A DNA stretch of 60,284 nt, counting the filler, from Sphacelaria rigidula (taxonomy: Eukaryota), in assembly GCA_964200075.2 (NCBI GenBank). It is 10 parts of 10 records of this genome, joined end to end, with 100 filler letters (N's around TTAATTAATTAA, not from the genome) between each part and the next. Parts side by side here need not be neighbours in the genome. Positions count along the whole stretch, not along the records: positions 6,040 to 11,978 come from CAXNAA020023329.1; 9 more parts are not named here. One strand, written 5' to 3'. The position numbers were made by a program, and so were the translations under genes. Positions 1,813 through 60,284 of the stretch are shown here, in pieces. The first letter of the stretch is position 1, and every line of letters begins with the position of its first letter. The notes beneath the pieces were generated by a model. It saw nothing but the letters and a program-made list of their open reading frames with translations, was not told the DNA's origin and made no database searches.

Positions 1813-2589
1813 CCCCGATACAAGATACCAAACGTAAAAAACCGCCTCACGACTTGAGTTTTCTTCTTCAAAATCCTCACGGGGTACCGTACCGACATGT
1901 AGGCAAGTTATTTTTTATCGCCATTCTGGAAAAATTTTCAAGGTACGAATCGCGTATGGTGTATGGGTGCATTTGCCTCATATTCATGATCAGATTGAGG
2001 GGAGACTTTAATGAGGCCGCAAATTCGGGGCACCACACTTTTTCGAATCACAACGGCGGCCTTTTGAAGGGTACTTAATGCCTTGACCGCGAATACCCCT
2101 GTGTCTCTCATGTGCCATTTTGCTGGTATACCACGAGTTGGAATTGTTGCCTACAGAACCGCCTGGGGGGAAATTGAATCGTATATGCAAAGATGATGGT
2201 AAACAGTTAGTTTCATCGTGAAGTGCACAGTACAGTAGTAGCAGTTCTATGTATCTTCGCTGTGGTCCGTGATGCTGTGGTGGTTCCCAGACGATCGAAC
2301 TGAAGGGGTCCGGGAGCCGACGGTGAAGAATGAATGATAGACAACGTTTAACCGCCTCAAGCTCGCACTTGGCCCCCCCCCGCCCCCCCCCCCCCCCCCC
2401 CCCCCCAACACCCCCCGCCCCTCCCCCGCCCCACCACTGNNNNNNNNNNGAGTCAACCAAAGGGGGCCGGGGACCGCCGGGGAAAAATGAATGATCACCA
2501 CCGTTCACCCCCCCCCACCCCCCCCGTGGCCCCCCCCCCCCCCCCCCCCCCCCTAACATTGCCAATGCGCCCGTGAAGCCTCTGTTTAG

Positions 2590-2700
2590 ATATGTAAAAG
2601 GTTTTCGTGTAAAGGGTGAAAGAAACGTAAGAGCGCCGAAATGTTGGAGGTGTTGCCGTAAGCAGCAGAAACGGTGCTGCGTCTCGAAGGGAATGCGTTT
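2590..2700 (+). mobile_element. Degenerate 3' end fragment of the RTEX-like LINE, lying between C-runs
   Basis: aagaaacgtaagagcgccgaaatgttggaggtgt...cggtgctgcgtctcgaagggaatgcg matches 17151-17229; C-runs at ~2508-2553 and ~2725-2732. Confidence 0.7.
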
Positions 2701-2795
2701 CTATTTCAAAGAGATGCGACACCGCCCCCCCCGATTTTGCCTCATCCCACACCCCCAACCTGGACGAATATTCGTCGTTGTTGCGTCGCTTCCAG

Positions 2796-3427
2796 ACGGC
2801 GGCGACTCAGAGAATGAATCGTCTGACAGCGACGGCGGGCCCGGTTTCTTCGACGGCATTAACGACAACCCGACATCGGAAGAATTTGCCCGCGTTACTG
2901 GGGGAAGACTTGTTGGGGATGCGGGGACAGTACGAGGGAGCGGTGGGAAAGGCGGAGCGAGCAGCAAGGGCGAGGAGAGCGCTAGTCGCAACCACTGCGA
3001 TGACGATGACAACATCAGCAGCCTTGGCGATGCCGGCAACGGCGATGATTTACGGAACGGTTCCGCGGGAGAACAGGCCAAGCGTGCAGCAGCAGCGGCA
3101 GTAGCAACTGCTGATGGTGGTGGAAGCGTAGATGGCGACAAAGAAAATGACAGCGCGAGTCCATCGACGTCGCCGACGACCAAAAAGAAGAAACGCAGTG
3201 CGGTGAAGGAGGACGGGTCAGAGGAAAATGTGGTGGCTGCTGTTGGCGGTGGCGGCGGCCGTACTGGGCGTACTGCTGCGGCGCCGTCTAATTTCAGCAG
3301 GGTGGACCCGTCGCTTCCCGTGACGGAGCTGGAACAGCGGTTCCCCATGTTCTTGGAGGCGGAGGCGTGCACGGTCGAGGTCCATGCGGGGCAGATGCTG
3401 TTCCTCCCCGCTGGCTGGTTCCATGAG
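2796..3427 (+). CDS. Internal exon of a JmjC-domain (cupin-8 type) 2-oxoglutarate/Fe(II) oxygenase
   Basis: Acceptor tccAG|, donor GAG|GTgtgt; encodes NFSRVDPSLPVTELEQRFPMFLEAEACTVEVHAGQMLFLPAGWFHE, the C-terminal half of a JmjC fold with the distal metal-binding His (PAGWFH), preceded by an acidic/Gly-rich low-complexity stretch. Confidence 0.85.
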
Positions 3428-4289
3428 GTGTGTGTTTTTTTGTGGGTGGGGCATTCGTATTCAATCAATGTGGGAAGATGTTGAACTCATGTCTCGATGT
3501 TTGAACGAAAGTTCCGAGTAAAAGCGTTGGGCTATGTATATTGATCGCTCTGCTTTGCATCGCACTTCCAATTTTCTTTTCCCTTGTTATGATGTAAAAT
3601 GAGCATAATCGGCACAGAAGCAGGAGCACGGGAAGAAACACTTGAATTTCATGGATTATAACTCCACTGAAGCTCTCGCGTTTCGCACGCGTGAATAACG
3701 TACAGTCTATGTAGCCACACGACGTCGTTCCACGTTTGCAAGGGCCGGCAGGAAGGCGGAGCTCAGACCGGAGTCGTTGCCCGGCAAGTTCTCGCTAGGT
3801 TCTCCTGTACTATCCCCGGCCACTATTAGATCCGTTTTGACGTACACGTACAAGACCTGTCTCCCGGAGTGCCATTCGCTATTGAACAAGGGAAAAGGCA
3901 GACGCGGCAGTGCTACCCCCACTAGTGTAATCGTACCTGAGCCACCTCCCCCGCAAACGGAACTGTGTGACGTAGTGAGCACCCCTCAGATGAAGTACAC
4001 AACCGAGACCAAGGAATATTCTACGCCCAAAGTGGGAGTTTTCGACGCGTATGGCGGAACGCCAATCACTGCGTCCGCGGCAACAGCACTCGACGAAATA
4101 AATAGGCGGTCGAGGGCGTTGACGGCCGAGAAAGGCGGGAATTTCCAAAAACAAACGTCCGAAGGGATGATCCCACACGAAGGACAAATTCCCGCTCCGG
4201 GTCAGGAGAAGTCGAGACAAGTATCCTCCAAGCACACATGAACCACGGTGGCCTGTAGAGTTCTTCTCTTTCCGTGGGGAATTATGAAG

Positions 4290-7638: not shown

Positions 7639-7752
7639 CTTTGACGATAGCATCGTTGCTGCTCCTGTGAAGGAAGATCCCCGCCTGTTTTCCGTTGTAC
7701 ACCGTGTTGTTTTGGATGGACAGGCCGTTGCACTCCACGGATGCGATGATTC
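7639..7752 (-). CDS. Mannuronan C5-epimerase (AlgG-like beta-helix), exon 5 of 5 visible
   Basis: AG/GT bounded, phase-consistent; (G)IIASVECNGLSIQNNTVYNGKQAGIFLHRSSNDAIVK(G), typical of brown algal alginate epimerase PbH1 repeats. Confidence 0.9.
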
Positions 7753-7805
7753 CTTCGTAGCAGAGGAAATAAAGAAATTGAGAGGGGACATGGGGGGGGG
7801 GGGAG

Positions 7806-8372
7806 GTGTACTCATGATCTTGCATGCCATAGTCATCTGATCATTGACCTCGCACCCCTACGAAGCCGGGACGGAGCACGCCGGGGTTCGCCGGACCAGG
7901 CTCGCAATCGATCACCAAGTGCGAAGGGCCGTGGTGTGCTCGGCGAGTCGCATGAAGGGTGAGCTGCATCCTGCTAAGGTTGTTCGACCCGAAGCATTCT
8001 GATTGTCTTGCATATGGATGACAGCCTCCCATGAGTTGCATCATTACCTGGTACCATCACTTCCAGAGACAGCCACGGCTCACACACTGCCTCATGGGTG
8101 TCTCACCATATAGACACAACGTAGTACGATCGTCCCCATTGTGCGGAGTTCAGGTTCTCCCACGCCGCACAACATGGTCTAGCTCGACTACCATCATGGT
8201 TACCGCAAAAAAAACGCAACCGAGCAAAACAAATCGGTATCGTGATTGCCTAGCGTACGCAGTGAGTGGCGTGTTTTACAGCATCATCGCTAAGCGACGC
8301 CAACTCCATACGGGGTTCTGCCCCTACAAAGCCGGGACGGAGCACACCGGGTTTTCGCCGTACCAGGCCAGT
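7806..8372 (-). mobile_element. ~570-bp non-coding retro-like element sharing the LINE 3' tail, with a ~48-bp internal direct repeat, flanked by G-rich runs; intronic
   Basis: Begins (plus strand) G-run+GTGTACTCATGATC; direct repeat ccctac.aagccgggacggagcac.ccggg.tt.gccg.accaggc at 7855-7901 and 8321-8368; homologous copies at 35782-36132, 36233-36280, 40556-41130, 60269-60284. Confidence 0.85.
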
Positions 8373-9364
8373 CGAGGGGGCAGGGAGGAGGGGGAGAGGG
8401 GAAGGAATGGGTACAGAAAAAAAACTGCATTTACCTGATAGTAGTAGCAGTGTGTGTGTTTTAACGTATTCATGTCCATGACCAGGTTCAAAGACGGCCA
8501 TGAGAAAAGTTGGGCCATCCTAGAGCCCATACTAACCTTTGACAAAACAAAGCAGGCAGGCAGGACTTGCTTCCGAACTCGGGTAGACAACACTTGCACG
8601 CGAGATTAAAATCATCATAGTATGTTACACCAGGTGTAAAATCAAAGGATGTTGTCGATGACTCTCCATTGACTAATCCTGCCAGACCCGCAACCGACTA
8701 CCAAAGGCGGTCCGTATGTGATTGAGTGATGGATCGATTGCGCACATGAAGTGGTCCCCAAGGAGTCATAATCCAGTTGTGGTCATCATCCACAAGATAC
8801 GCGTTCCCAAAGTAAAATAAACACGAAAACGCTCGCTGAAGGAAGGAAGCTCGAGTTCGGGGGAATATGAAAGGAGAGAGACAGAGACAGAGACAGATAG
8901 AAAGGGAGGTACAGAAAGAAACAACAGAGTATAAGTTAAGAACGAGAAACAGCGGTGAAACGAAAATGATATCGGTTGAACAAGTTGAATAGCTTCTTCG
9001 CGGTTTAAAGGGACGAGGGATGAACACAACGAGATTCTGACAAGAAGCGGGGGACTTCCCCCCGCCTTTTCCTCGGGGCGAGCCCGTGGTGTGAAGGGAC
9101 CAACCTGTTCCTCCATCGGTACCTGCCTTGCAATCTAGTATTGAGCATCATACCGGCACTACTGTAGCTCGTCAACTTGCAAGGGAGTATTTATGTTCAA
9201 GTCACGTTCTCACCCTTTCAACGACAAAAACCAAATAAAACGACTCGTGAGCGTCGGGATGTCCAACCCACCGCTTCGCTCAAACTGGCCGATGATGGAT
9301 GATGTACTACCAGTCTGGCCGCCGAAGCGAGGAGGGGGCTGAAAAAAAAGAGGAATAGACTCAC

Positions 9365-11200: not shown

Positions 11201-12145
11201 CTAGAGGTATCACGAACAAGCGTTCGGTGAAGAGGTACAGGACAGATTAGCCCGTGGGGTCGGCGATGGTGAAGAAACAAGGCTTTGCATTATGGGCTCG
11301 CCGTAGAGTAATTGTCACACATTGGAGGTCACACATCAAGTCTACGCAAATGGGCTACATGATCACGTGTGTTCAACGGGCCAGCCTGCTGCAAACAGAA
11401 GTAATGTCCCGTCTAGATTCCGCGGGAGTGTAGGCAACATGTTTCATTTTAAGTCTCTGACCGGCAGGGTTGATCGTCTGGGTCTCATCGGCATTTTTGA
11501 GGTGAAAATTATGCCATTTCAATAGGTGATCCATTCTGGCGGTCAAAGGGCTAACGGAATCGCAACTGATATTCGTGCGTTCAACAGACGGGTGAAGTGT
11601 CGGGGTAGGACCCTTGGTATAGTACGTCCACTCGCTGTGAGTGGTTGTGCCAAAGAACAGTGGATTTTCGAAAATGGGGTTGAAAACAAAATGAGGTTCA
11701 ACTCAAAAGCCGTGCTTTCCTTGTCCAAAACCCGTGACAAATGACTTTCATATGGACCACCTCATCCCTTCCGACCTCTCTAGAACTATTTTGAGGGATT
11801 TCTAGCCTTCCATTCCCCCAAAGGGTGTGTGTGAAAGGACGATTTTGGGGACCAAAAACGTCCTTTTTTCACCCCGAAATCGAGGGGGAAATGTGCTTTC
11901 GCACACACCCTTTGAACAGCCGATCATCTATGTTGAGGATGGTGCTTTTCATTGAGGATGAGAACCCGGAGGATTAAANNNNNNNNNNNNNNNNNNNNNN
12001 NNNNNNNNNNNNNNNNNNNNNNTTAATTAATTAANNNNNNNNNNNNNNNNNNNNNNNNNNNNNNNNNNNNNNNNNNNNGTGCAAGACAGATATGCCACTT
12101 CAGCCCCATATTTTGTATGAACCCCAAAATTTAAAATCGGCTGTT

Positions 12146-12457
12146 AAATACTCTACTTGAATCTGGGGTAGATTGAGTGCGACCTCGAATACTCTATTCA
12201 AGTTTTAGGTAAGTGCTCCCTTACTCAGGTATAGAGTATCACTTGGATATAAACTCAATACTCTACTCAGATTTTGGGTAGATTGAGTATGACCTTAAAT
12301 ACTCTACTTGAATTTGGGGTAGATTGAGTACGAACTCAAATACTCCACTCGAATTTTGGGTAAATTGAGTATGACCCCAAATACTCTACTAAAATTTTGG
12401 GTAGATTGAGTACGACCTCAAACGTTCTACTCAAATTTTGGGTACTAGAAGTATGAC
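12146..12457. repeat. Tandem minisatellite, ~41-bp palindromic monomer (about 6-7 copies, one interruption)
   Basis: Consensus aaatactctactcaaattttgggtagattgagtaygacctc repeated head to tail. Confidence 0.9.
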
Positions 12458-13179: not shown

Positions 13180-16100
13180 AAATGGGTGGGTAAAGTACTA
13201 GTATAGTAGTGCTGATATTCGGAGTTCGTAGCGATATGAGAAGAATAGAGTGTCAAATGAAATGCAATGGAGTTGGACTATACTATTTGGCAAGAGGAAA
13301 AGTAGAAAGGGAGGGAGAACACTTTCGAGTCAAGCTAAAACAGAGCGCTAGCAAGGAGTGGGAAAGGATAGAGGCGAGTAAGGTGTCGGCACGGGTTAGG
13401 AGAGTATGATGGAGAGTATGCATAGCTAATGGAACAACAACCGAGGACGTAGTCCACGGGTAAACGGAGGGGGAGAGAGACAGGAACACGGAAGTGCCCG
13501 GAACGGGCAGAAAGGGGAAGAAAGGGGAAGAAAGGGAATATGGCGGCCGGAAACAAATAAATAGACAAGACGAACGCAGAAACGGGAAGGGAACAACAAT
13601 CAAGCGAGGGGAATTAAGATTAAAAGCGACGGAGAGAGAGCAGTAGACAACACGAGGGCAGGTAATGATTTGGAAAGGAAGTTAAGAATAGGATCGTGGA
13701 AAGTATGCGGATTCGTCACAGACAAATGTAAAAGAAGAGAGATAGCGCAACAGGTAAGTAGACACGAGGTAGATGTAGTAGGAATCCAAGAGTCATGGGA
13801 GAAAGAGGGGGCGGGAATAGCATGCAAAGTTGAAGAGTACGCATGGATAGAGAAAAGGTGGAAGGAACAGAAGCCCAAGAGCAGGGGAGCGGGGGAAGTA
13901 GGATTCTTAATCAAGGAATACCTGTGTGACAGGATAGAAGTGATCGGCGAAACGGAATTCGACGAGAGCATATGAATAAGGGTACCAGGAGAGCGGGGAA
14001 CGAAGGACTTCTTAGGGAATATCTACATGCCCCCAGAATCGAAGAGTAGGGTGAACGATATACAACGGAGGTGTGGAGAGATAGCAGCAGATGTACATAG
14101 GTATAAAAGCAAAGGAGAAGTAATGTTAGTGGGAGATTTTAATGCAAGGGTAGGAAGAGCAGGTCAACCGGACGATAAGATTGGGCAATACGGCGAAGAT
14201 AAGAATAATACGAATGGGGTAGAAATGCTAAAGTTCCTTGAGCATAACGAGATGAAGATGCTGAACGACAAACCACAAAAGCCAGAGGCACAATGGACAT
14301 GGACTAGAAAATGCAACGGGGAAGAGAGAGAATGCTCCGTTCTTGACTATTTAGTGGCAGATCATGGAATAAGTAAAGAAATCGAAGTACATGTGTGCGC
14401 GGACGGTGAGGAAACCACAGATCATTGCCTGATATGGACAGAAAGTCAACAGACGAGAGCTAAACAAATAGCTGGGGTAGGAAGTTGTACAAATGGAGAA
14501 TCGATCAACTAGATATGGAAGAGAAATGACAAGAGTTCCAAGATGAGATGGCCATGAATGCGGTGAAATTTTCCGAGCTGTTGGAGAGCGTAGGTACAGT
14601 TGATACCGAAATAGACAGAAATCGGGCAGGAGCGAAGATCATAGAAGGATGGGAGCCGTTGGTTAAGACCACAGCGAGTAAAGTCATGGGGAGGAAACTG
14701 ATCGTATGCAACAGAGCAGTAATATGGTGGGATGAGGAAGTAAAAGAGGCTATACGAGTAAGGACGGAGGCCCACGCGAGATGGATATCGAGTAAAAGTA
14801 CGGTAGGAGGGGAGGAGTATACTAAAGCTTGAAAGGAAGTAAAAAATATGGTACAGCAGAACAAGAAGGGAGTATGGGAAGGTGTAGTGGAAAAAACAAA
14901 TGAAGATGTCGATGGCGGGATGAAACAAATGTGGGTAGGGATAAAAGGGAGTAGGGGAAACCAGGCAAGAAAGATGGACAGGGGGATAGCTACACTCCTG
15001 GCTCAGAACGGTAAAATGGTCAGTAGTTCGAAGGGGGGGAGTGTAGTTCTAGTCAAGCACTACCGTAAACTAGGAATGCCAAAAACTAACACGAAGGTCG
15101 AGACGGAAATCGAAAAAGAGATCAACGCGTGGGCGGAGGCAAATGTACGAACGTCAAAACGGAAGGATAGAGGCTCCAAAGAATTGCAGAGAGAGTTCAC
15201 CAGAGATGAAGTAAAGAAGTGCATAGCTAAACTCAAGGGAAAAAAATAAGCAGGGGCAGACGAAGTAGTGAATAAACTTCTCAAGTACGGGGGAGAGGGA
15301 ATGATTATCATGATGGTTATGCTGTACAACTGGATCTGTGAAAACGAGTACACACCCAAGAGGTGGAGAGAAGGGGTAGTCGTCAACCACTTCAAAAAAA
15401 GGGACAAGGCTGACCTAGGAAGTTTTAGAGAGATAACGCTACAAAGCACCGTAGGGAAAACATTCTGTAAGATTCTGAACAATAGTGTGGGAACGATGCT
15501 AGAAAAGGGAGAATCAGCGAGTGGCAAGCAGGTTTTGGACCAAACCGTAGTTGCGTAGATCATGCGTACACACTAGATGAGATTGTTCAGGGTAGGAAAG
15601 ACACCGGGTTGACAACGTACTGTTTCATTCTGAGCGTGCAAAAGGCTTATGACACAGTATGGAGAAATTACTTGTGAAAAAAGTCGTGGAAAGCTAGGAC
15701 CAGAGGAATGATATGGAGGATGGTAAAGAATATGACATATTGTGCCAAAAGTGCCATGATGCTAGACAGGGAAATATCGAAATATTTCGATACCTTACAA
15801 GGAGTTGCACAAGGATGTACGGTATCACCCACTTTGTCCGAGGTATTTATTAATGACCTGATAATAGTAGTAGAAGCAGCAAAGCAAGGGGTCAAGGTGG
15901 GTGAAGACATGGTATTAGGATTGATGTTCGCGGGTGGTTTTATGGGGATTTCAGAAACAACACAAGGATTGCAGACACAGATAGACAAGGCGCTAGAACA
16001 CACGAGGAAACGGAGAGTGACAGCGAACGTCAAGAAATGCGCGGTACTTATCTGTAACGAAGATAAGAAAAATCCGGTAGAGTTCAAATGGAAGTGGGGA

Positions 16101-17271
16101 GAAAAGGAATTGCCGATCGTAGACCAGTAAATATACCTTGGCGTAGAGATACTGAAAAACTGTTCTTGGGATGCACACATAAACAACGCAATGCAAAAGG
16201 GTAGGGCACAGATAGGCAGGATGGACGTGATCCTCCGAGACTCGCACCTGGATACTAGGATTAAGAGATGTGTCCTGATGTGAACGTGGTTGTACAAAAG
16301 CTGGAATATGCCGGAGAAGAATGGGAGAGGAACGTAGAGTTGGTTGAAAAGTTCGAAACAGCGCAGATGGCAGCAGCTAAGAAGATACTTGGATGCTCGA
16401 AAACGACGAGTAATACAGCATTGAGAGCAGAGTTGGGAATGTACTCGCTAAAAACTAACAGAGACATGAGAAATTGCGATGGCAATATAGCGTAAAAAAC
16501 ATGCAGAGAAAGATATTGTCACCCATAGTTGATAGGGCTGTATGCAAGAAAATCAGGAAAGGGCGGGCTGGAATAAGGTGTGATATATAAGTCGAGAAAG
16601 TATGGAAGGAGATAGGAGGTAACCACGACGAAATACTGCTCATAGATGAGGGCGCGGGGTACAAAACAAAATCGAGAGACATAATAGGAATAAGGGGAAA
16701 AGGAGCGCTCAGACGCAAAATAGACGAGGAAGAAGACCTGAAGATTCACGGGGGGTTGAGAGAGGGGATAGAGATGAAGGCATATTTTGCATGACCGAAT
16801 GGACGCTGCGAAAAACCTGAAACTGCGATTTCGGGTTGGGGACCTGGACCTGCTAGAAAGAAGAAAGGGATACACCAGTCGTCGTGTGGAGGAGGGAGTA
16901 GATGGACAGAATTGCTCTTGTGGCAAAGCAATAGAGAGCAGAACTCATACAGTGTTAGAATGTGAACTATACAAGGAGGAACGGGGCGTGATAGAGGGGA
17001 AAATGTAGGACGTGAACGAAGATGGCATGAAATCGTTTGATGCATTAGACAGTAGCGAGAAAAATATGGCTATACTAGGTGATAGATGCTGGCCACAGAC
17101 GGCGAAACAGGACGGGGATAATATGTCTAATATAAACTTGTGATATATGGAAGAAACGTAATAAGCGCCTGAATGTTGGAGGTGTGTCTATGAGGAGTAG
17201 GAGTGGTGCTCCGTCTCGAAAGGGATGCGGGGTCAATGGTGAAACGACTAAGGCAAGCGACAAATGGGTAC
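13180..17271 (+). mobile_element. Near-full-length degenerate non-LTR retrotransposon (APE endonuclease + RT + C-terminal CCHC), RTEX-like; multiple stops and frameshifts
   Basis: APE motifs LRIGSW.V.G, VVGIQESW, VMLVGDFNARVG, LDYLV, TDHCLIW (13680-14440); RT motifs FREITLQSTVGKTFCKILN, KAYDTVWR, GVAQGCTVSPTL...FINDL, LMFAGGF (degenerate FADD), YLGV; ALRAELG; CSCGKAIESRTHTVLEC. The 5' boundary is inferred from the C-run at 13159-13179 and is uncertain. Confidence 0.93.
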
Positions 17272-18644
17272 GCTTCCTTCCCCCGGTTTTGCCGATTTGA
17301 GCATTTTCGGGCTGCGGCTCCTAGGACAACCTGCTACGAGCTCCTCTGCGTGAACGCGCAATAAAAAAAACACCTTCCTCATATAGCCATGGCAGAATAG
17401 TGCTGCGTGCCTTCCTATTATAGTGGCAAGACGTCTTTTTTCCCCATACCTGCATATCAAGCGCCGATTTAATGTCCTTTCAGCGTCATTTAGCCCTGCA
17501 AAACTATTCTCCATGAACTCCGGGGACTGTTAGTGGGAAAAATCTCAAAGAAAAAATTACGGGCGTTATAAGAGTCAACAAAGGTATCAACGAAAGTCGC
17601 GACCGGCTGCAGAAGTGCTCGTATCAATAGTTCAATCTTCGACGATAAAATCTAAGGCAGACACAGGGGGAAATGCATTGATCCTTTGATACTGCGGACT
17701 TGTTTTGAGAAGGGGGAAGGGGGCAATTGAGAGTGCGACGAAAAAGTGGAATTGTAGTAGATTCACTGATGTATTGTGTTGATTGCGTGGGAACCAATCA
17801 TATATATTTCACCATATATTATACCGACCTGAAACAATCAATCGGTACTCAGTTTCGTCGACACGTGCTTGCAGGTTTCACCCGTTGATCGTGTGGCTAT
17901 TGTATGCTTGGTGGGCATTCGGAGTCAGTCAACCCTTGTACGTACACTCATAACAATATTTTCGTGAGATTGAGAGTAGATGATACGATTGGGAGTGAAA
18001 AGCGGTCAATCAGTGAANNNNNNNNNNNNNNNNNNNNNNNNNNNNNNNNNNNNNNNNNNNNTTAATTAATTAANNNNNNNNNNNNNNNNNNNNNNNNNNN
18101 NNNNNNNNNNNNNNNNNTGGTCTTGTGTGTACGGTCAGTGCGGTCCTGTCTCTACAAGTCTTGGGTGCGTGGGCAGTCTGTACTGCATCGCGAGTGCTGT
18201 TCGCATCACGCTGCATACACAGACCTGAAATGCGAGCTACAATGCTGTCTATCTATGAGTGTTTGTACAGCACTCGTCATCGACCCTGCCCTGTGCTCTT
18301 CTCATGGGGTAAAGAGCTGCCATGAGACTGGCGAGCGAAGGACAATGAAGCAACACGCTGACTACCCGCGAGCATCAGCGGCAGCAGTGATCATGGCAGC
18401 CAAGCCACCCATGGCTGCTGTCGTGGGCTGGAGGGTGGGTTGGCGTGGGGCGCGATTTCAAGCGCGTTTTCTGATCACATAGGAAGTGGGTTATCAGAAC
18501 ACGCGTTTTTGAATAGAGCTCTCTTCATACATGAGAACTAGCCGACGGGCACCGTCAGCGTCACGTACCACGGTAACATCAGGCGTTAAACGACACAATA
18601 CAACGCCTCAAACACTGGTGGATGAGCCGCGACATGCACAGAAT

Positions 18645-21741: not shown

Positions 21742-22957
21742 ACCCCACGGGGTGTAGCCGAGTGTCCACCGGTGATGTGTTCTTGCACAAGGTATGGAAA
21801 CACCACCCTGTCAAGGTGTGCCTTATTAGCAGAAGGTATCGGAACATCACCCTGTCAAGGTGGGCCTTACGCCGGGGTATCGAATTAGTACCCTGCCAGT
21901 ATGTGTCCTTGCACAAGGGACGGAAACATGACCCTGTCAAGGTGTACCTTAGCACAGGTATCAAAATATTACCCTGCCAGTATGTCTCCTTGCACAAGGT
22001 ACGGAAACATCACCCTGTCCAGGTGTGCCTCGGCAGAAGGTACCGGAACATCACCCTGTCAAGGTGTACCTTAGCACAGGGTATCGAATTGTGACCCTGC
22101 CAGCATGTGTCCTTGCACAAGGTATGGAAACATCACCCTGTCAAGGTGTGCCTTAGCAGAAGGTATCGGAACACCACCCTGACAGGGTATCGAATTAGTA
22201 CCCTGCCAGTATGTGCCCTTGCACAAGGGACGGAAACATCACCCTGTCAAGGTGTACCTTAGCAGAAGGTATCGGATCACCACCCTGTCAAGGTGTACCT
22301 CCTTAGCACAGGGTATCAAAATATTACCCTGCCAGTATGTGTTCTTGCGCAAGGTATGGAAACATTACCCTGTCAAGGTGTACTTTAGCAGAAGGTATCT
22401 GAACACCACCCTGTCAAGGTGTACCTTAGCACAGGGTATCAAAATATTGCCCTGCCAGCATGTGTCCTTGCACAAGGTACCGAAACATCACCCTGTCAAG
22501 GTGTACCTTAGCAGAAGGTATCTGAACACCACCCTGTCAAGGTGTACCTTAGCACAGGGTATCAAAATATTACCCTGCCAGCATGTGCCCTTGCACAGGG
22601 TACGGAAATATCACCCTGTGTGCCCCGGCACAAGGTATCGGAGCATCACCCTGTCATCAAGGTGTACCTTAGCACGGGGTATCGTAACATTACCTTGCCA
22701 GGGTGAAGACTTGTCCAGGGTATGGGGTATCACCCTGCCAAGGTCAGCTTGGTGCGAGGTATTGACACACTACCTTGTGCAAGGTCTACCAGTTTATAAG
22801 GTATTACCATCAAACCCTGTCAAGGTATTCGTGCCGACAAGGGACTGTCAAGCGACCCTGCCAGGGTTCCATACCCTACACAAGTTCATCACAGGGTCTC
22901 CACAGGGTGTTGGCCTCGACAGGCACCCCACGGGGTGTAGCCGAGTGTCCACCGGTG
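21742..22957. repeat. Array of roughly 27 palindromic 41-bp monomers (123-bp trimeric higher-order repeat) bracketed by perfect 33-bp direct repeats
   Basis: ACCCTG-type monomer start at 22326, 22367, 22408, 22449 (41-bp period); accccacggggtgtagccgagtgtccaccggtg identical at 21742-21774 and 22925-22957. Confidence 0.93.
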
Positions 22958-35781: not shown

Positions 35782-36132
35782 GTGTACTCATGATCATGCA
35801 TGCCATAGTCATGTGACCATTGACCTCGCATCCCCAGAAAGCCAGGACGGAGCACACCGGGTTTTCGCCGGCCAGGCTCGCAGTCAAATCACCAAGTGCG
35901 ACGCACCGTGGTGTGTTCGGCGAGTGGCATAAAGGGTGAGCTCCATCCTGCTAAGATCGTTCGCCCCGAAGCCTACTGATTCATCTTGCATTTGGATGAC
36001 AGCCTACAATGAGTTGCTTCATTTTCTGGTATCGCCACTTCCAGAGACAGCCACGGCTTATACACCACCTCCTGGGTGTCTCACCATGCAAGCACTACGT
36101 AGTATGACCATCCCCTTTGTGCGGAGTTGAGG
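35782..36132 (-). mobile_element. Copy of the ~570-bp poly(C)-anchored element, truncated by the contig end
   Basis: G-rich run then GTGTACTCATGATCATGCATGCCATAGTCA...; colinear with 7806-8150. Confidence 0.88.
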
Positions 36133-36232
36133 NNNNNNNNNNNNNNNNNNNNNNNNNNNNNNNNNNNNNNNNNNNNTTAATTAATTAANNNNNNNNNNNN
36201 NNNNNNNNNNNNNNNNNNNNNNNNNNNNNNNN

Positions 36233-36280
36233 TACAAAGCCGGGACGGAGCACGCCGGGTTCTCGCCGGACCAGGCTACG
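36233..36280 (-). mobile_element. Terminal direct-repeat end of the ~570-bp element followed by a G-run
   Basis: tacaaagccgggacggagcacgccgggttctcgccggaccaggctacgtGGGGGG. Confidence 0.8.
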
Positions 36281-38947: not shown

Positions 38948-39510
38948 CGTACTCATGTTTTGCATACGGTAGCCACTATCATAGAAGACCGTTGACCACG
39001 CGTGCTTGGCAGGACAGATGGAGGGAGGGGGGGGTGGCATCCCTACCAAGCCTGGATGGAGCACGCCGGGTTTTCGCCGGATCAGGCTCGAAATCGCCGA
39101 GCACGAAGCGCCGTGGTGTGTTTGGCGAGTCGTATGGAGGGTGAGACACCTCCAATATTTGGGCGCTCATAACGTTTCTGCCAGGAATGACACAAAAACC
39201 CTTTACATGCCTCATCACCTTCTTGTTTCGCCGTCGTCTGTGGCCACCATCTATTGTCCTGGTATAGCGGTCCTTTTCTCGCTACTTCCTATTGTACCAA
39301 ACGTTTCATGCAACCTTTTCATTCACCTCATACATTTCCCCCTCTGACAATTCCCGCCGGGTCCTCCTTGTAATAATTCACGCTTTAACATTATACAAGT
39401 CATACTCCCTATTGCTTTGCCACGGGGGCGATTCTGTGCATCTGATTCCTCCTTCACTTGACTACTGGTAAACGTCTTTTGTCTTTCGGACAGGTCCAGG
39501 TCTCCCGTCC
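38948..39510 (-). mobile_element. LINE C-terminal fragment whose 3' region is the long tail shared with the ~570-bp element, followed by a third short tail variant
   Basis: GDLDLSERQKTFTSSQVKEESDAQNRPRGKAIGS matches the LINE at 16840-16940; it runs into ctcaccctccatacgactcgcc...cccggcgtgctcc; separate tail ...gcgtggtcaacggtc...catgagtacgCCCCCCC at 38941-39020. Confidence 0.82.
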
Positions 39511-39764
39511 GACACTTTCTACGATAGCCCCCCCAAAAAACCAGCCCAAAAGTGTCACGAAAAAAATGGCCAAACAGCGCCTGGTATTTGGGTTCAGGCT
39601 GCGTGAAGCGCCTCATATTGGCAACATTGGCGAAAACGAGCCCAAGCGTGGGAATTCCCAGCTGCTCGTTGTACTCGGCTTTTCCCACTTCGATTTACGT
39701 GAAGATTTTGCCTCCCAAAACCATGCATTTTTTTGGGGGGGGGGGGGCTATCGTAGAAAGTGTC
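39511..39764. mobile_element. MITE with GACACTTTCTACGATAGCCCCCC TIRs and apparent 4-bp TSD; second copy at 51554-51799
   Basis: gtcc|GACAC...GTGTC|gccc here; ctcg|GACAC...GTGTC|ctcg in the other copy. Confidence 0.88.
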
Positions 39765-40055
39765 GCCCAAATCCCATTTTCATTTCCCTTTTCTTTTTTG
39801 GGGGGGGAGAGGGTATGCGACGCCAGAATAAAGTCAACACGCACCGTACTGTGCTTTTGTGAGACAAAATATCGGAGAGTGTAAGAAGTTACACAGCGTA
39901 TGGGTGGCTCCCTATGTGCAAAATAATTTCCAAACTGTTGGCGCGACGTGACAAACCTGTCGGGGTGCGTGCGGGTATCCTGGGAGCACAGCAGATTCCT
40001 GTATCTCTGCAGGCATGATACCCCAATCTGAACAAGTGAAACGCGGAGAGCATAC

Positions 40056-40555: not shown

Positions 40556-41130
40556 GTGTACTCATGATACTTGCATGCCATAGTCATATGACCAATGACC
40601 TCGCATCCCTACAAAGCCGGGACAGAACACAACGGGTCGTCGCCGAACCTGGCTCGTAATCAATCACCAACCGCAAAGCGCCGTGACGTGTTCGGCGAGT
40701 CGTATGAAGGGTGAGCTGCATCCTGCCAAGATTGTTTTGCCCGAAGCGCACTGATCATCTTGCATTTGGATGTTAGCCTCCGATGAGTTGCTTCGTTTTC
40801 TGGTGTCGCCACTTACAGAGACAGCCACGGGTTTCACACTGCCTCATGGGTGTCTCACCAATCGAAACACTACGTCGTACGATCATCCCCTTTGCGCGGA
40901 GTCGATGTTCTCCCACCCCGCACAAAAAGATCTAGCTCGACCACCATCATGGTTACGGCAAAAAACAAACACAAGCAAGGGCGAAAGCAAATCGGTAACC
41001 TGGCTGCCTTACTGACGCAGTGAGTGGTGTGTTTTACAGCTTCATTGCCAAACGACTCTATTATAACCCCACAGGGGGTTCGTTCCTCTCGCCGGGACAG
41101 AGCCCGCCGGGTTTTCGCCGGACCAGACGC
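40556..41130 (-). mobile_element. Second full-length copy of the ~570-bp poly(C)-anchored element, intronic
   Basis: Colinear with 7806-8372; direct repeats at ~40607-40653 and ~41091-41127; G-rich runs on both sides. Confidence 0.88.
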
Positions 41131-42096: not shown

Positions 42097-42170
42097 GTAC
42101 TCATTTGTTGCTTGCCTTAGTCTTTTGACCATTGACCACGCATCCCTTTCGAGACGGAGCACCGTTCCTA
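42097..42170 (-). mobile_element. LINE 3' terminus followed by a 14-nt C-run
   Basis: Reverse complement reads cggtgctccgtctcgaaagggatgcgtggtcaatggtcaaaagactaaggcaagcaacaaatgagtac+C-run. Confidence 0.9.
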
Positions 42171-42404: not shown

Positions 42405-42495
42405 TCTACAGTTCAGTACAGTTCGGTATAGTTCAGTTCGGTTCAGTTCAGTACAGACAGTTCAATTCAGTTCAGTTCAGTACGGTGCAGTACAG
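42405..42495. repeat. (GTTCA/GTACA)n pentamer microsatellite
   Basis: Direct observation. Confidence 0.85.
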
Positions 42496-42511
42496 CAGGT
42501 TGTGGTTTTAC

Positions 42512-42816
42512 CTGTATTGTTCTCCACTGCGGATTCAGCGTGTGACTTTGCACCTCAGTCTTGAACACGTACACCCTCTCGCCCGTCTCCAGCACCCGGG
42601 CCATCTTCAGGAAAGGATCGCTGGACATAAGGTCCTTCTTATCCACCTGTTGTGCGCGCAGTTTGAGCGTCACGAGGTCGTGCTGGTGCTCAACCTCGTC
42701 CATGCGCACAAACACCTTCCCCGCGTCGGTTGCGCCCAATTTGGCATTCGTCAAGTTCAATTCGGCAGTCTGCGAACTTGTCCCCAAGATCTCCGCCATC
42801 GTAGTTTCCGCCACAC
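42512..42816 (-). CDS. Copine (C2A end and C2B domain), exon 3 of 3 visible
   Basis: ctAG|...CAG|GTaaa; (G)VAETTMAEILG...VTLKLRAQQVDKKDLMSSDPFLKMARVLETGERVYVFKTEVQSHTLNPQWRTIQ. Confidence 0.92.
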
Positions 42817-42819
42817 CTA

Positions 42820-43070
42820 GGGTTAATGGTGAAGGGTTAGATCAAGGGTTTGGGTTGAGGGGTGCGGGTAAGGGGTCAAGGGTCAGGGTTCAAGTGTCAA
42901 GGGTCAGGGTTCAAGTGTCAAGGGTCAGGGTTCAAGTGTCAAGGGTCAGGGTCAAGTTTTACGGGTAAGGGTTAAATACCAATGGTTGGGTTCAAGTATC
43001 AAGGGTCACGGTTAAATATTACGGGTCAGGGTTAAGGATTAAGGGTTGGATACGGCTAGGGTCACGGTTT
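42820..43070. repeat. Degenerate telomere-like tract including a 21-bp tandem unit (caagggtcagggttcaagtgt, about 3.5 copies)
   Basis: Repeated agggtt/agggtc motifs directly abutting the copine 3' splice site. Confidence 0.8.
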
Positions 43071-43449
43071 GACAATGAGCAGCTAGAGTTTGGGCCGCGG
43101 TCACCGCTCACGTGAAAGAGTGTGAGACTGTTGGAATAGCAGTGTTTACATTCGGCTTCCGACTCTTTCAAAGTGCAGAAAATGGGCGATGAAACAGAAA
43201 TGTGCAACGTGGCACAAATACGCCAGTAGGGGTACAGTGAGCAAAACCCGATTTGTTTTCATGCGAAAGAAAAATCTTGATTTCGCGTCACACGTACTTG
43301 TCATGATCTAAGAATAGCAGTAAAGTCATGTTTTTATGCAGGCCTCCTCTGTTGCCACAATAGGAGACAGCCCATGTAGGTGGTGTGATTATTGGTGGTA
43401 AAAGCTCCTTTCGCCAAGAGGCACCTGGGTACTTCATCACAGCCTATTT

Positions 43450-44620
43450 TTACCATGTTTCCTATTTTTGTCTCGTACCCCGCATTCATCTATGGACATC
43501 ATCTCGTCTTGGTCTCCTCCTACGCCCTTCCATACCTTCTCGACAACACTGTCTCACCTTAATTCTCCTTGCCCGTTCGTCTTTTCCATCCATAAAGCCC
43601 TGTCGACTATGCCTGGCAATATCGCCCTTGGCATGCTTCTTAGTTATAATGCCATTCCAAACTTGAACTTTTCATGTATCTGTTTCAAGTCGTAACATTC
43701 CTATCCCTGCTCTCAATGCTGTTCTTAATCATTGTTTTTTAGCATCCAAGTGTCTTCTCAGCTGCTGCCATCTGTACTGTTTCCAGCTTTTTCACCGAGT
43801 TCGCGCTTCCTTCCCATACTTCTCCTGCATATTCCAGCTTTAGTACAATGTGTACTGTTTCCAGCTTTTTCACCAACTTCGTTTCATTTCTTAATCCTCG
43901 AGTCTAGATGCGAGTCTCTTAGGATCTCGTCCATCTTGTCTACCTGTGTCTTACCCTTTTGTATTACTATATTCAAGTGTGCACCCCAAGAACAGTTTTT
44001 TTTACATCTTTATGTCAAGGTACGTTGACTGGTACACGATCGGCAGTTCCTTTTCTCCCCACTTCCATTCGAACTCTACCGGATTCTCCTCATCTTCGTT
44101 GCATACAAGTACCGCGCACTTTTTTTACGTTCGCTTTCACTCTGCATTTTCCTAGTGCAGTCCAGCGCCTTCTTCCCTTGTTTTCACATTCCTCCTCGTG
44201 TTTCTCATATCCAAACAAAATCATCCGCGAACATCAATCCCGGTCCCATATTCCCCCTCACCTCGACTCCTTGCTTTGCTGCTTCTATTGCTGTCATCAG
44301 GTCAGTGATGATACTTCCAGTAAAAGTGAGTGAAAGCGTACATCTTCGTGAAACTCCCTTTGTAAAGAATAAAGTATCAAAATATTTTGATTTCTCCATC
44401 TAGCATCACAGCAGTTCTCGCACACTCAGTCATCTCTCCCACCCTCCTCCACATTCTCCTTCTGATCCCAATTTCTCACATCTTTTCCACAGCCCATTTC
44501 TCCATACTGTTTAATAGGCCTTTCGTACGTCTAGAATGAAACAGTCAGCGTATTTCCTGCCTTGAACAAATCTCACCTGCAACAGTGCCTGCGCATGGTC
44601 TACGCAGCTACCGTATGGCC
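43450..44620 (-). mobile_element. Degenerate RT-domain fragment of the RTEX-like LINE inside a copine intron
   Basis: SCVDH, SKYFDT..KGVS..CTLS, EAAKQGV, GLMFADDF; colinear with ~15545-16690. Confidence 0.9.
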
Positions 44621-44836
44621 CATTAGCAGATTTCGTCAAAGTCTTCGTCATTTTTACGATCTCCCCACGCGACTCGAGTCATACTTCTGCTGACTTTTCT
44701 TGTTCATGATTCGAGCAGAGCGCCACTGAACTGAACTTGCGAAGTTGCGTTTGTGTCAGCCGTCAAACATCGTCCACACCACCACAACAATATGATGATT
44801 ACTTCCCATCGTGCCGTTTTTTCTTTTCTCAGTCAC

Positions 44837-45007
44837 CTTGAAAGTCTTGTTTGCTCAGTACCAATTGGCTAGCATCGTTGGTCTTGTACGCGCTGTCCGC
44901 ATCATATACCTCCAGCCTCAGGCTTTGCACCTCCTCAAAAATGTACGTCAACGTGAACTGGGCCGTGAAGTTCGGGCTTTGGCTGTTGGACACAATCTCC
45001 GTGCGGC
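44837..45007 (-). CDS. Copine C2A domain, exon 2 (absent from the ORF track)
   Basis: tacAG|...AAG|GTgact; (G)RTEIVSNSQSPNFTAQFTLTYIFEEVQSLRLEVYDADSAYKTNDASQLVLSKQDFQ(G). Confidence 0.93.
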
Positions 45008-45415
45008 CTGTACATGCACAACGCGTTCAACAGATGATGTCGATAAGGTGTTGAATCTGAGCTGAAATGTGCCAGGACCCCCGATGACCGGTCAGTCCGT
45101 AAGTCAGTCAATATTGAGTACAGTTGATTTATTTCTCGAAATGTGGAGCGGATACAAATATGTTCAGATCCCCAATGTGATAGCGGTGGTAAGCGAAAGA
45201 GCCTGAGAAAATCTCCAATTACGAGGAAACACGATGACCTCGAACAATATTCAATTAATTCACGAATAATTCATTAATTCATTCATTATTATATATGCCC
45301 TACGTTTTAGTTTTCTCCTGAAAACTCACAACTGTTGGACGCAATGTGTTACACTTACCTATTTATTGTTTTCCTGACTAACGTCACCTCACAAAAATTC
45401 AGATCCATCGCTCAC

Positions 45416-45498
45416 CCACTTCTCGCCAATTGACATCCGTGTCCGTTTTCCATCGCAACACAACGAACGGATCCGATTTGCTCATCTTGTCCATTTTT
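45416..45498 (-). CDS. Copine C2A domain, exon 1 of those visible
   Basis: gatAG|...G|GTgagc; KMDKMSKSDPFVVLRWKTDTDVNWREV(G), joining to RTE to give the copine SKSDP...W.EVGRTE signature. Confidence 0.9.
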
Positions 45499-48400
45499 CT
45501 ATCAACGAAGACATTGACGCGCAAGAATGGGAATCAACGACAAACAGAGGCCAAACATGGAGATTTCGTAAAAACATTTTTTGCGAACAATTGAGCGGGT
45601 ATGATCAGGGGGTCACTGTGAAAAGGTGATGGGACCTCAACAGACACTCGTGGGCATTTTTCCTCCTGCAGTATCATGTCGTAGTGTCCATCCATATCAT
45701 CCCCTTTCGTTAGTGAGCCTCTTCGTGCGTCCTTGAACGGAGGTTTGTGGAAGCTACCTTCTTCTGCCGGCCAGCGGTGAGGATATTTCTGTCACCTGTT
45801 ACAGTGTAATGTGTCAGCACCCTTGTGCGGGCATGTCAGGATTCGGTGTGTGCGCGCGCAGGCAGACACTGCTATCGAAAGCTGGCACGCACAACTTTGA
45901 TCAAAAGGAGCGTGTGCTCGTGTGTGGCTTAATTTTGGCGACAAGGATGGAGGAAAAGCGGTCGACGACGGACAGGAAAAGGTCTGGTTGAGCCTCCTGG
46001 ACGAGACACCTTCACGACCAGAACCGGAGTGCATAGTGCATCACGAGCGAGGAAGTGCTTCACACGAAAGGAAGCAGAGGGGGCACTCGCTACGAACAAC
46101 GACGAGAACATGTGGGATCATGGACGCTGGTGAGGATGGATGGGCAGTTGCATTGGCCGTGGACGCTGATGAGGATAGATGGGAGCATCATGAGGTCAAC
46201 ACCGAGGAGGGTCCTGCAGCGGAGGAAGAACAGAGCAGAGCATTTTGATTTAGTTGTTTTGTTATGGTCACTGTGTACAGATGGTATTCCATGTTTTCAT
46301 GGTTGGATATAGGACACTCTGAACAAATGATGTTTTTTACTGACACGCAATCTTGTGTGTAAGTTAAACACGCCCTGAGTGTTGTGTTTCTATGTCGATG
46401 CTACTTGACTCGGACCCAAGGGAAAACATAATTCCTTTTTCTTTCTTCCTCGCCATAGGTTCGTCCTATTTTTCGTTTTCTTTCTTTTTCTTCTCAGCTG
46501 ACGTTGTTCAGTCTCCGGTGCGCAGTCTCTGTAGAGGATCTCCTTGAACAGCACTCTAGACAGCAGGTCTACTTTGGGATCGGTTCCCGTTCTATGCGAC
46601 AGTTCGATTACGGGCTTACTCGCTGATACTGCACTGTGCAGACACCAGTACGTGGCACGGTAGTCGGAGAGGTCACCCGCCGGAACTTTTCAGGTTCCAG
46701 TAGGTCTCCTGTAGTTCAATCGGTCTTATACGGATATTTCACCATGTAGGGTGCCTTGTTTTCGTGTAGATGTTTTGTTCCTCGCCTTCCTCTGGGGGCT
46801 GTTTGGATCATGGATATGGATGGTATGCTTCTTGGACTCTGTAAGCACAGGTTCGAGATCGAGCTAATGTGACGGAAATGAAAAGAAAAGGACGAGACAT
46901 CGGAGAAGGTAGAGGCTCTTGCCCAGAGGAGTGGAAGCCTTGACACGATAAAGTCAAGCCACATTGTGATGTCGCTGTCGCACGGTATGAAGATGTCCCA
47001 AAAAAAAAAGCGTTCTTCCCACTTTAGTTTAACCCTTTGGGAACCCCCCCTCCCGTCCCCGGTCCAGACGCCTCATTATTTCAAGCGCTGATAAGAGAAG
47101 AAAATATGGGGAAAGAAAATACCGACAACAACCCTTTTTGCGGCGGAAGGCCACAGAAGAATCCACCGACATACGTCATGCTCGCACCAAAAATGTCACC
47201 CCGGTGCAGTCGGATTAGTTTTATCGAATGGGGGGACGCAACGGGTCAAGTATGTTCAACTTTGTGCACAGCAAAAAGCAGCACTACGGCCTCCGAGTTT
47301 CATACAGCAAAAATCAAAACCTGTATATTTTCTATATGTGTAGTCCCGTGTGGCACTGCGGCACACATTTATACAGGTGACGCACTCCACCGGAGTATTG
47401 GTGTGCTGCAGTCTGGAGGCCGTACCCGCTCAACACTTGGCAAGCGTGCTAAGCCACATCACAGAAACAAAGTAGCATGGTCGATCACACAGAAATCCCT
47501 TCACCACACGTGGAAGGATTGAGATGCGATACGGGATTTACGCGATTCACCGTCAGTTGGGAGCGGTCGCGGGTCTGAAAAACACGCTGGTGGTCCTTGG
47601 AAGCTGCAAACAATTAACCATATGTTGTTAAAAAAACAGAACCTCGAAATCAGAACTTTTCCATTGTCAGTACCAAAAAGAGTAATGTCGAAAGTTTGGC
47701 CGGGTGAAGGCCTCCGTCAGGAGTCAGCGCATACAGGGCATCAAAACCGTGCTATATTCGTCGTCGTAGACGACGAGAATGTTTGTTAAAAAAAGAAGTA
47801 TTATAGTAGTAGTGTAGCAACGTCTTTTCACTGCTACCGTTGACTTGAATCAGCTTGCAAAACACTCACACGTCGGACAACTCAACCCTTTTGGAACCGT
47901 TGATGGAAAATTGACGATTTGCATGTGACGTTTTTTCGGACAAGAAATGGTTGTTTTTCTACAGCCTTTGAGCAGACGACTCGCCCAAAGCGTGTTTTTC
48001 AGACCCGTGCGAATGGAACGTGGAAGAAAAGAAGGTTCGAAGGTTCTCTATTTTAAGGGTATGACGAATTGTTCGACCCGTCGGTGTCTTGTAACCCCTG
48101 CCAAAGTGCATGGCTGACTCTCCGTGAAGCAATCTTCACGCCGCACCTGCAGTAGATGCTTTGCACCGCATCATAGCAAGCTTGCGCCCAAGTTGAAATA
48201 ACAAAGGCNNNNNNNNNNNNNNNNNNNNNNNNNNNNNNNNNNNNNNNNNNNNTTAATTAATTAANNNNNNNNNNNNNNNNNNNNNNNNNNNNNNNNNNNN
48301 NNNNNNNNTGGCGGTCGCCTCGCCGTCTAAGTACTTGTCTACATCTACGTGCGTGGGGTGGTCGTGGCCGCTGCTCGCGTGTTGAGCCATGAAGTTTTAT

Positions 48401-51400: not shown

Positions 51401-51553
51401 CCCTTTTGTTCAGACCCGTGGCCGAACGCCAAATTATCGGGAAGCGAAATCGCCTCAGTTTTGTGGTGCTGACGCACAGGCGGGCTGTGGATGGCGAAGT
51501 CATTGGCCCATTGCGCGTACTGGCAAAGAAACGCGAAGAAAAGGGCTTTCTCG

Positions 51554-54170: not shown

Positions 54171-54240
54171 GTTCGTGCTCCGTCTCGAAAAGGATGCGTG
54201 GTCAATGGTCAAATGACTAAGGCAAGCAACAAATGAGTAC
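54171..54240 (+). mobile_element. 70-bp 5'-truncated LINE 3' end embedded between two C-runs
   Basis: C11 - gttcgtgctccgtctcgaaaaggatgcgtggtcaatggtcaaatgactaaggcaagcaacaaatgagtac - C-run to the contig end. Confidence 0.9.
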
Positions 54241-60268: not shown

Positions 60269-60284
60269 GTGTACTCATGATCAT
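60269..60284 (-). mobile_element. 3' tip of the ~570-bp element with a long G-run at the window end
   Basis: G-rich run 60243-60269 then TGTACTCATGATCAT. Confidence 0.7.

What the first reader, a model, noticed from the sequence alone, without database searches (positions are those of the whole stretch)
7792..8400. ~570-bp non-coding partner element with a LINE-like 3' tail and a copy of its subterminal motif at the 5' end
Seen: on the minus strand the structure is C-rich run, ~48-bp repeat A, ~420-bp body, repeat A, ~50-bp tail ending ATGAGTACAC, C-run. Two full copies (7806-8372, 40556-41130) and three partial ones occur in 60 kb. Three independent 5' ends (about 8368, 36277, 41127) stop at nearly the same point just past repeat A. 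The tail is homologous to the LINE terminus (GTGCTCCGTC...GCG.GGTCAATG.TCA..TGACTA.GGCA.GCAA...ATGAGTAC). I see no tRNA A/B boxes, TG..CA LTR ends or TIRs. Inference: a non-autonomous retroelement mobilised by the LINE that fits neither a classical SINE nor a TRIM. The duplicated repeat may act as a promoter, an RT-binding site or a template-jump/circularisation signal.
Basis: partly seen in the sequence, partly recalled or inferred. Interest (0 to 1): 0.8.

Follow-up and report, generated by a model that had tools for sequence, protein, structure and literature searches.

The report
Seaweed retrotransposon hitchhiker with duplicated tail
This is an abundant, non-coding jumping sequence that borrows the copying machinery of a long retrotransposon, like one already known from the seaweed Ectocarpus; its twist is a second copy of part of its tail at its front, whose edge seems to set where new copies begin.

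Summary
The element is real: a 564-nt non-coding repeat, about 10,000 copies in a 244-Mb genome, built as repeat A (48 nt), body, A' (47/48 identical), 50-nt tail and (C)n. It is a non-autonomous partner of an EN+RT LINE with (C)n tails, the counterpart of Ectocarpus RTEX-N1. Three corrections. The 5' C-run is target site, not element. Most copies are 5'-truncated (3 of 33 unbiased copies keep the 5' repeat). The element also carries a 41-nt piece of the LINE's 5' head, so it is a bipartite LINE derivative. LTR-like or circular replication is not supported: the two repeats keep a fixed one-base difference, and tandem forms are rare. What is unexpected is that 5' ends pile up at A's 5' edge both at the front and internally (51 versus 1 junctions at a control site). 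Most LINE tails are likewise ~67-nt stand-alone pieces cut at the start of the shared module. Best model: the 5' repeat is a frozen template-switch copy of the LINE-protein recognition module, and its edge sets 5' ends without a promoter. New variant of a known kind.

The parts
7806..8368 (-). Full-length element, copy 1 (9% from consensus), in an intron just upstream of a beta-helix exon, sense to the host gene
8322..8368 (-). 5' repeat A (hairpin H1 + LINE-derived hairpin H2)
8266..8306 (-). 41-nt module homologous to the LINE 5' head (34/41 between consensuses, E=2e-8); hairpin with possible loop pseudoknot (pseudoknot read by eye)
7903..8265 (-). Body of unknown origin; T-runs and long hairpins; no Rfam or tRNA match
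7856..7902 (-). 3' repeat A'; its 5' edge is a hot spot of 5' ends
7806..7855 (-). LINE-derived tail with stem-loop H3, ending ATGAGTACAC
7790..7805 (-). 3' C-run: (C)n tail merging with the C-rich target
8372..8405 (-). Upstream C-rich target site; not part of the element
35782..36277 (-). Copy 3: full-length copy interrupted by an assembly gap (A 36233-36277; A' 35832-35878)
40556..41127 (-). Copy 2: full-length, older subfamily (13% from consensus; A' 40607-40654)
38949..39505 (-). Chimera: LINE 3' region (39143-39505) joined to element positions 406-518 with A' (39041-39088), then C-run and a diverged tail
60269..60284 (-). Element tail cut by the window end
13181..17273 (+). Partner LINE, 5'-truncated, broken EN+RT frame; in the family the stop codon lies inside ATGAGTAC
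54175..54240 (+). Stand-alone ~67-nt LINE tail ('mini') between C-runs
42097..42170 (-). LINE tail next to an assembly gap
43466..44622 (-). Internal LINE fragment (RT region)

Best explanation
A non-autonomous, non-coding partner of a (C)n-tailed EN+RT LINE (the RTE-X family of brown algae, by inference), inserted by target-primed reverse transcription into C-rich sites. SHOWN: shared 3' end, TSDs opening with a C-run, 5' truncation, a 41-nt piece of the LINE 5' head near the front (bipartite build), a 5' copy of the 3' module, and 5' ends clustering at that module's edge wherever it stands. INFERRED: the LINE protein binds the hairpins of the last ~70-100 nt. The edge of this bound or folded module is where insertions end, either because reverse transcription finishes once the module is copied or because the RNA is trimmed back to it. 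The 5' A arose once, when RT jumped from the head of one RNA into the tail of another and stopped at that edge. It now gives full-length copies a defined 5' end with no Pol III promoter. A is not recopied in each cycle.
For: Tail 42/52 nt identical to the LINE end; LINE last 68 nt 99% identical to a relative whose protein is only 64% identical. TSDs in 10 of 70 ends versus 0.3% of 600 mismatched pairs. LINE head: 14 of 14 heads start at one point; head lies 1.5-2.0 kb upstream of the LINE ORF region, same strand, on 6 contigs shared by two top-40 lists; 34/41 identity to element 63-103. End clustering: 9 of 23 element 5' ends in 400-545 fall at 465-469 (p=3e-8 a priori; scan p<=5e-5); genome-wide 51 C-run junctions at A' versus 1 at a control site. 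LINE: 27 of 40 truncated tails start 63-72 nt from the end; 2,933 versus 557 exact matches for motifs just inside and just outside that edge, which match long copies equally (6 and 8 of 25). A template-switch product of the proposed type exists: L117 has 469-547 fused onto 206-564. Ectocarpus RTEX-N1 matches in size, tail, TSD, weak LINE 5' homology and tandems.
Against: In the unselected sample alone the A' cluster is 4 of 13 (p=8e-4 a priori, but scan p=0.06-0.11). Other clusters of 5' ends exist without A (260-261: 5 copies; 63-65: 4), so A is not the only end-setter. The LINE hot spot sits at element-equivalent ~492, while the element's is at 465-469, so the two edges are not homologous positions. 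No module folds significantly alone (z -0.7 to -1.5; whole element -3.35). The body (104-466) has no detected LINE homology. Head-to-ORF continuity of the LINE was inferred from co-location, not read through. Only one control site was tested genome-wide, and only 2 of the 51 junctions were tied to a tail. No RNA-end or binding data. The minis could be families of their own.
Confidence: 0.7

Rival explanations
1. Same element class, but the 5' A is a neutral relic. A 5'-truncated tandem or template-switch product happened to become the master copy; end clusters only reflect RT pausing at hairpins.
For: Clusters also occur at 260-261, 347-358, 516-518 and 63-65, near predicted stems. All 4 copies starting at 63-65 belong to the older subfamily and could be an A-less ancestor. 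Chimeric and tandem insertions are common.
Against: 5' A is present in both old and young subfamilies yet stays 47/48 identical to A'. It is the least diverged window among 32 full-length copies (5.5% versus 8.3% median; below all 34 body windows), though ranking by full-length score biases towards conserved ends.
Confidence: 0.3
2. A holds an internal promoter (or an undescribed self-cleaving motif), so both copies start RNAs: 564 nt from A and ~98 nt from A'.
For: 5' ends lie at -2 to +3 of A' and +1 to +4 of A despite different upstream sequence; T-runs at 136-164 resemble Pol III terminators.
Against: No A/B-box pair, HDV-like or hammerhead core on the sense strand (descriptor had no positive control); no Rfam match. 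LINE minis cluster without the first half of A. Pol III would stop at the T-runs, far short of the tail (established knowledge).
Confidence: 0.15
3. A is an LTR-like R region or circularisation signal (TRIM-, Ngaro- or retrozyme-like replication through a 466-nt circle).
For: Direct repeat at both ends of a 466-nt unit; 11 body-A-body junctions found; back-joints in contigs.
Against: Position 16 is G in 26 of 31 5' repeats and A in 25 of 31 3' repeats; shared within-copy variants 5 versus 2.4 permuted, p=0.09. Of the first 100 of 732 genome matches: G+head 26, A+tail 59, G+tail 5, A+head 2, 8 ambiguous. Tandem junctions are 8 A: 3 G, as for crossovers spread along the repeat. Back-joints never extend beyond 48 nt, so they are A' mapped on A. 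TSDs, (C)n tail and 5' truncation point to TPRT.
Confidence: 0.04

Closest known systems
Ectocarpus RTEX-N1_Ec32 / RTEX-N2_Ec32 (Dinatale et al. 2025, PMC12477816; passages, supplementary table 3 part 1 and searches read; FASTA supplements not readable)
   Same: 604-607 bp, >6,000 copies, 3' 60 bp 83% like RTEX-1/2, C-rich TSD, weak homology to the LINE 5' end, tandem copies; partner LINEs are single EN-RT ORFs of 5.5-5.9 kb with (C)n 3' ends. N1 and N2 share their 3' 100 bp, the length of A'+tail here.
   Different: No terminal duplication or 5'-end hot spot is noted in the rows read. Sequence homology to this element could not be tested.
Ectocarpus 'Sower' repeat (PMC3145265, passage read)
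   Same: Most abundant repeat, ~2.5 Mb, like RTEX-N1 (2.48 Mb); that they are one family is my inference.
   Different: No structure given in the passage; no sequence compared.
Bipartite non-autonomous LINEs: Bov-A, RTESINE1/2, WALLSI3, RIME, NARTc (Kojima 2018, PMC5786205, passages read)
   Same: Non-coding, carry a 5' and a 3' piece of the partner LINE, no small-RNA head.
   Different: Reported there for RTE, Ingi, Vingi and R2 only ('RTEX' has 0 occurrences). Here a ~360-nt body of unknown origin separates the pieces, and a copy of the 3' module stands where SINEs gain an RNA-gene head.
R2 5' and 3' protein-binding RNA motifs (PMC6895275, passages read)
   Same: Mechanistic analogy: copying a protein-bound RNA motif off the protein licenses second-strand cleavage; LINE RTs jump templates.
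   Different: R2 is a site-specific RLE element with distinct 5' and 3' motifs; nothing equivalent is shown for this APE-type LINE.
TRIMs, non-autonomous Ngaro (A-int-BAB), retrozymes
   Same: Short non-coding units with direct repeats.
   Different: Layout is A-int-A-tail with TSDs, (C)n tail, 5' truncation and unhomogenised repeats; no hammerhead core. Ngaro layout; TRIM and retrozyme features recalled.

Membership tests
Non-autonomous RTE-X partner (RTEX-N type) | 3' end shared with an autonomous LINE | tested here: met
   42/52 nt, E=4e-9
Non-autonomous RTE-X partner (RTEX-N type) | (C)n 3' end and C-rich TSD | tested here: met
   TSD in 10 of 70 versus 0.3% control
Non-autonomous RTE-X partner (RTEX-N type) | 5' truncation, no coding frame | tested here: met
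   30 of 33 unselected copies lack the 5' repeat; stops in all six frames
Non-autonomous RTE-X partner (RTEX-N type) | Partner LINE belongs to the RTE-X clade | tested here: inconclusive
   EN+RT, ~5.9 kb, (C)n, 54% to an Ectocarpus sp. protein with the same C-terminus; no RT phylogeny against RTE-X references was run
RTEX-N1_Ec32 / Sower itself | Sequence homology to the Ectocarpus consensus | not testable with these tools
   FASTA supplements cannot be read
Bipartite non-autonomous LINE | 5' part derived from the LINE 5' end | tested here: met
   34/41 nt, E=2e-8, LINE +17 to +57; head assigned to the LINE by co-location
Bipartite non-autonomous LINE | Made solely of LINE 5' and 3' parts | tested here: inconclusive
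   Body 104-466 matches none of the LINE parts held; the LINE 5' UTR was only partly in hand
Classical SINE | tRNA/5S/7SL-derived Pol III head | tested here: not met
TRIM / LTR element | Terminal repeats identical at insertion, TG...CA ends | tested here: not met
   the tail lies outside the second repeat
TRIM / LTR element | PBS and PPT | not tested
   no search run
Non-autonomous Ngaro/DIRS | A-int-BAB split repeats, no TSD | tested here: not met
   A-int-A-tail; TSDs present
Retrozyme / ribozyme-headed element | Hammerhead or HDV-like ribozyme | tested here: not met
   (descriptor without positive control)
Retrozyme / ribozyme-headed element | Circular monomer RNA | not testable with these tools
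   only contigs available

The most novel reading that the evidence does not exclude
Repeat A is a portable RNA end-defining signal: a LINE-protein footprint, exonuclease roadblock or new cleavage motif. It cuts discrete 564-, ~98- and ~67-nt templates out of host read-through transcripts, so a promoterless element bracketed by two copies of the LINE's recognition module matures and transposes as a defined unit. This would be a way to make a SINE-like element without Pol III or a known ribozyme.
Probability: 0.3. Interest if true: 0.72.

Novelty: new variant of a known kind. Interest (0 to 1): 0.45.

Why it matters
It gives an anatomy to the kind of repeat that dominates brown algal genomes and whose 5' origin the Ectocarpus curation left open. 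It would extend bipartite non-autonomous LINEs to RTE-X. The sharp 5'-end hot spots offer a natural, testable handle on what ends reverse transcription and sets 5' truncation in APE-type LINEs, which is poorly understood. A LINE whose recognition hairpins lie inside the coding frame, with a (C)n tail, is also an unusual TPRT system.

Tried and rejected
Rfam on five element loci: 0 matches; on heads and junctions: 2 chance matches; on one copy: sX11 at 24.9 bits against a cut-off of 70. ARAGORN: none. HDV-like descriptor: none on sense strands, one on the antisense LINE head, 3 of 60 shuffles hit. An A-box-like word at 67 has no B box. Viral contigs: no element motif, no LINE relative. Laid contigs: back-joints are mapping of A' onto A; two runs guessed to be RNA hold the element, but that does not show discrete transcripts. 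First TSD test, unconstrained, was weak (9 of 29 versus 12% control). Tree of copies is star-like and cannot order the subfamilies. A genome-wide exact-word ratio across the A' edge was dropped because calibration was too noisy. Junction count at position 63 gave 6 matches with no matched control. Earlier findings of the scan: none. Literature searches listed no paper describing the duplication or the hot spots by title or abstract start; most subscription papers, Repbase and Dfam are outside the library.

Full report
Verdict. The feature is real and abundant. It is a non-autonomous partner of a LINE, of a kind already described in Ectocarpus, with two additions: a piece of the LINE's 5' head, and a 5' copy of the 3' module whose edge coincides with where copies begin. 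LTR-like or circular replication is not supported.

Observation. The window holds full copies at 7806-8368 and 40556-41127, a copy across an assembly gap at 35782-36277, a LINE-element chimera at 38949-39505 and a tail cut by the window end. A search of the own genome (244 Mb) gave 6,563 candidates; the 40 scored are 84-85% identical to copy 1 over nearly its whole length. The consensus of 30 of them is 564 nt: A (1-48), body, A' (467-514, 47/48 identical), tail (515-564), then a C-run. Of 29 with flanks, 19 start at position 1, 4 at 2, 4 at 3 and 2 at 4, but they were selected for full length. In 80 unselected stretches (741,380 bases) I count 33 copies, about 45 per Mb or 10,000 per genome; 3 carry the 5' repeat. 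The 5' C-run is target site: it is as C-rich before truncated as before full copies (0.48 and 0.51), and position-constrained TSDs appear in 10 of 70 ends against 0.3% of 600 mismatched pairs (the 70 include two LINE ends and one duplicate).

The partner. The window LINE (13181-17273) has endonuclease and RT domains. Its family frame runs to a stop codon inside ATGAGTAC, five bases before the C-run, so the recognition sequence lies in coding DNA. Relatives of 54-64% identity, one labelled Ectocarpus sp., end in the same peptide. A metagenome relative is 99% identical over the last 68 nt but 69-92% upstream. The element tail matches this end at 42/52 nt, and with a gap the match takes in the 3' half of A. 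Both fold into the same two hairpins with changed loops; loop positions 532-533 are among the most variable in the tail. No module is significant alone (z -0.7 to -1.5).

A bipartite build. Element 63-103 matched the start of another repeat. That repeat has a fixed 5' end in 14 of 14 copies, continues into a ~63-bp tandem array, and lies 1.5-2.0 kb upstream of the LINE ORF region, same strand, on 6 contigs shared by two top-40 lists (about 0.06 expected among 27,214 contigs). I read it as the LINE 5' head, making the LINE about 5.9 kb. The stretch between was not read through; 501 bases before the ORF region show no C-run boundary. Identity is 34/41, E=2e-8. By eye the differences keep a 7-bp hairpin, whose loop could pair downstream as a pseudoknot. 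The body (104-466) has no identified source.

Is A an LTR or circle signal? Position 16 is G in 26 of 31 5' repeats and A in 25 of 31 3' repeats; within-copy shared variants are 5 against 2.4 permuted, p=0.09. Among the first 100 of 732 genome-wide matches, G goes with the head in 26 and the tail in 5, A with the tail in 59 and the head in 2; 8 are ambiguous (my count). The repeats are thus inherited separately. Body-A-body junctions exist (11 among 40 scored of 3,151 candidates, a lower bound); 8 are A-type and 3 G-type, as crossovers spread along the repeat would give. Back-joints in laid contigs reach only 48 nt and are mapping artefacts.

What is unexpected. Of 23 element 5' ends between 400 and 545, 9 fall at 465-469, the edge of A' (p=3e-8; scan p<=5e-5; two rows dropped as a chimera and an internal deletion). 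In the unselected sample it is 4 of 13 (p=8e-4; scan 0.06-0.11). Genome-wide, a C-run joins that edge 51 times against once at a control site, and that one is internal to a full copy. The LINE shows the same more strongly: 27 of 40 truncated tails begin 63-72 nt from the end. Motifs just inside and outside that edge match 2,933 and 557 times, though they match long copies equally. About four in five LINE tails are therefore ~67-nt stand-alone pieces. Against a special role for A: clusters also occur at 260-261 (5), 63-65 (4) and 516-518 (4), and the LINE edge is not homologous to the element's. The 5' repeat is the least diverged part of 32 full copies (5.5% against 8.3%), but selection for full-length hits favours conserved ends.

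Mechanism. Shown: TPRT hallmarks, shared ends, clustering. Inferred: the LINE protein binds the 3' hairpin module; the RNA's C-run pairs with a nicked G-rich strand; insertion tends to end at the module's edge, because copying strips the RNA from the protein (as described for R2, PMC6895275, passages) or because the RNA is trimmed to that edge. The 5' A would be a frozen template switch; L117 shows such a product, 469-547 fused to 206-564. Placed in front, it gives a promoterless RNA a defined 5' end. I put the class assignment near 0.9 and the end-setting role near 0.55. Rivals: neutral relic, promoter or ribozyme, LTR-like or circular.

Comparison. Dinatale et al. 2025 (PMC12477816; passages, supplementary table 3 part 1, searches) describe RTEX-N1_Ec32: 604-607 bp, over 6,000 copies, 60-bp tail 83% like RTEX-1/2, C-rich TSD, weak LINE 5' homology, tandem copies. 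RTEX-N2 shares its 3' 100 bp. Their FASTA supplements could not be read, so homology, and whether N1 has the duplication, are untested and bear directly on novelty. Sower (PMC3145265, passage) is probably the same Ectocarpus family, by inference. Kojima 2018 (PMC5786205, passages) lists bipartite non-autonomous LINEs for RTE, Ingi, Vingi and R2. The element fails the Pol III SINE, TRIM, Ngaro and retrozyme tests.

Novelty and score. New variant of a known kind; interest 0.45. The searches made listed no description of the duplication or hot spots, but the library lacks most subscription papers and repeat databases. The boldest reading left open, a portable RNA end-defining signal, I put at 0.3.

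Noticed in passing
window 54175-54240; L047:381-436, L093:76-142 and others: About 80% of LINE tails genome-wide are ~67-nt stand-alone pieces between C-runs, some with clear TSDs; truncation products or a very short family.
   Followed up: partly
L003:2090-3571; L146-L157: LINE 5' head with a fixed start and a ~63-bp tandem array over 1.2 kb in the 5' UTR.
   Followed up: partly
window 13181-17273; P0003-P0005: The LINE has almost no 3' UTR: its frame ends five bases before the (C)n tail, and the C-terminal peptide is kept in relatives of 54-64% identity.
   Followed up: partly
L066, L074, L115, L120: Four older-subfamily copies start at 63-65, the edge of the LINE-head module; contig joints also show this start. 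Possibly an ancestral form without A.
   Followed up: partly
L002, L028, L034, L089, L135: Element and LINE tails insert into each other's C-runs and build head-to-tail clusters.
   Followed up: no
window 38949-39505: LINE-to-element chimera joined at a short microhomology.
   Followed up: partly
window 7640-7750 (-): Exon with a weak beta-helix match; resembles brown algal mannuronan C5-epimerase repeats (recalled). Copy 1 sits about 55 bases upstream of its acceptor.
   Followed up: no
window 42470-45500 (-); 2495-3481 (+): C2-domain exons (copine-like, recalled) and a Cupin_8/JmjC-like exon.
   Followed up: no
window 21775-22790; 12144-12457; 39511-39796 with 51525-51799: Unrelated tandem arrays and a ~290-bp dispersed repeat.
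   Followed up: no
P0005: The Ectocarpus protein is a gene-model chimera of a Gypsy-like polyprotein with a NADAR domain and the LINE C-terminal half.
   Followed up: no
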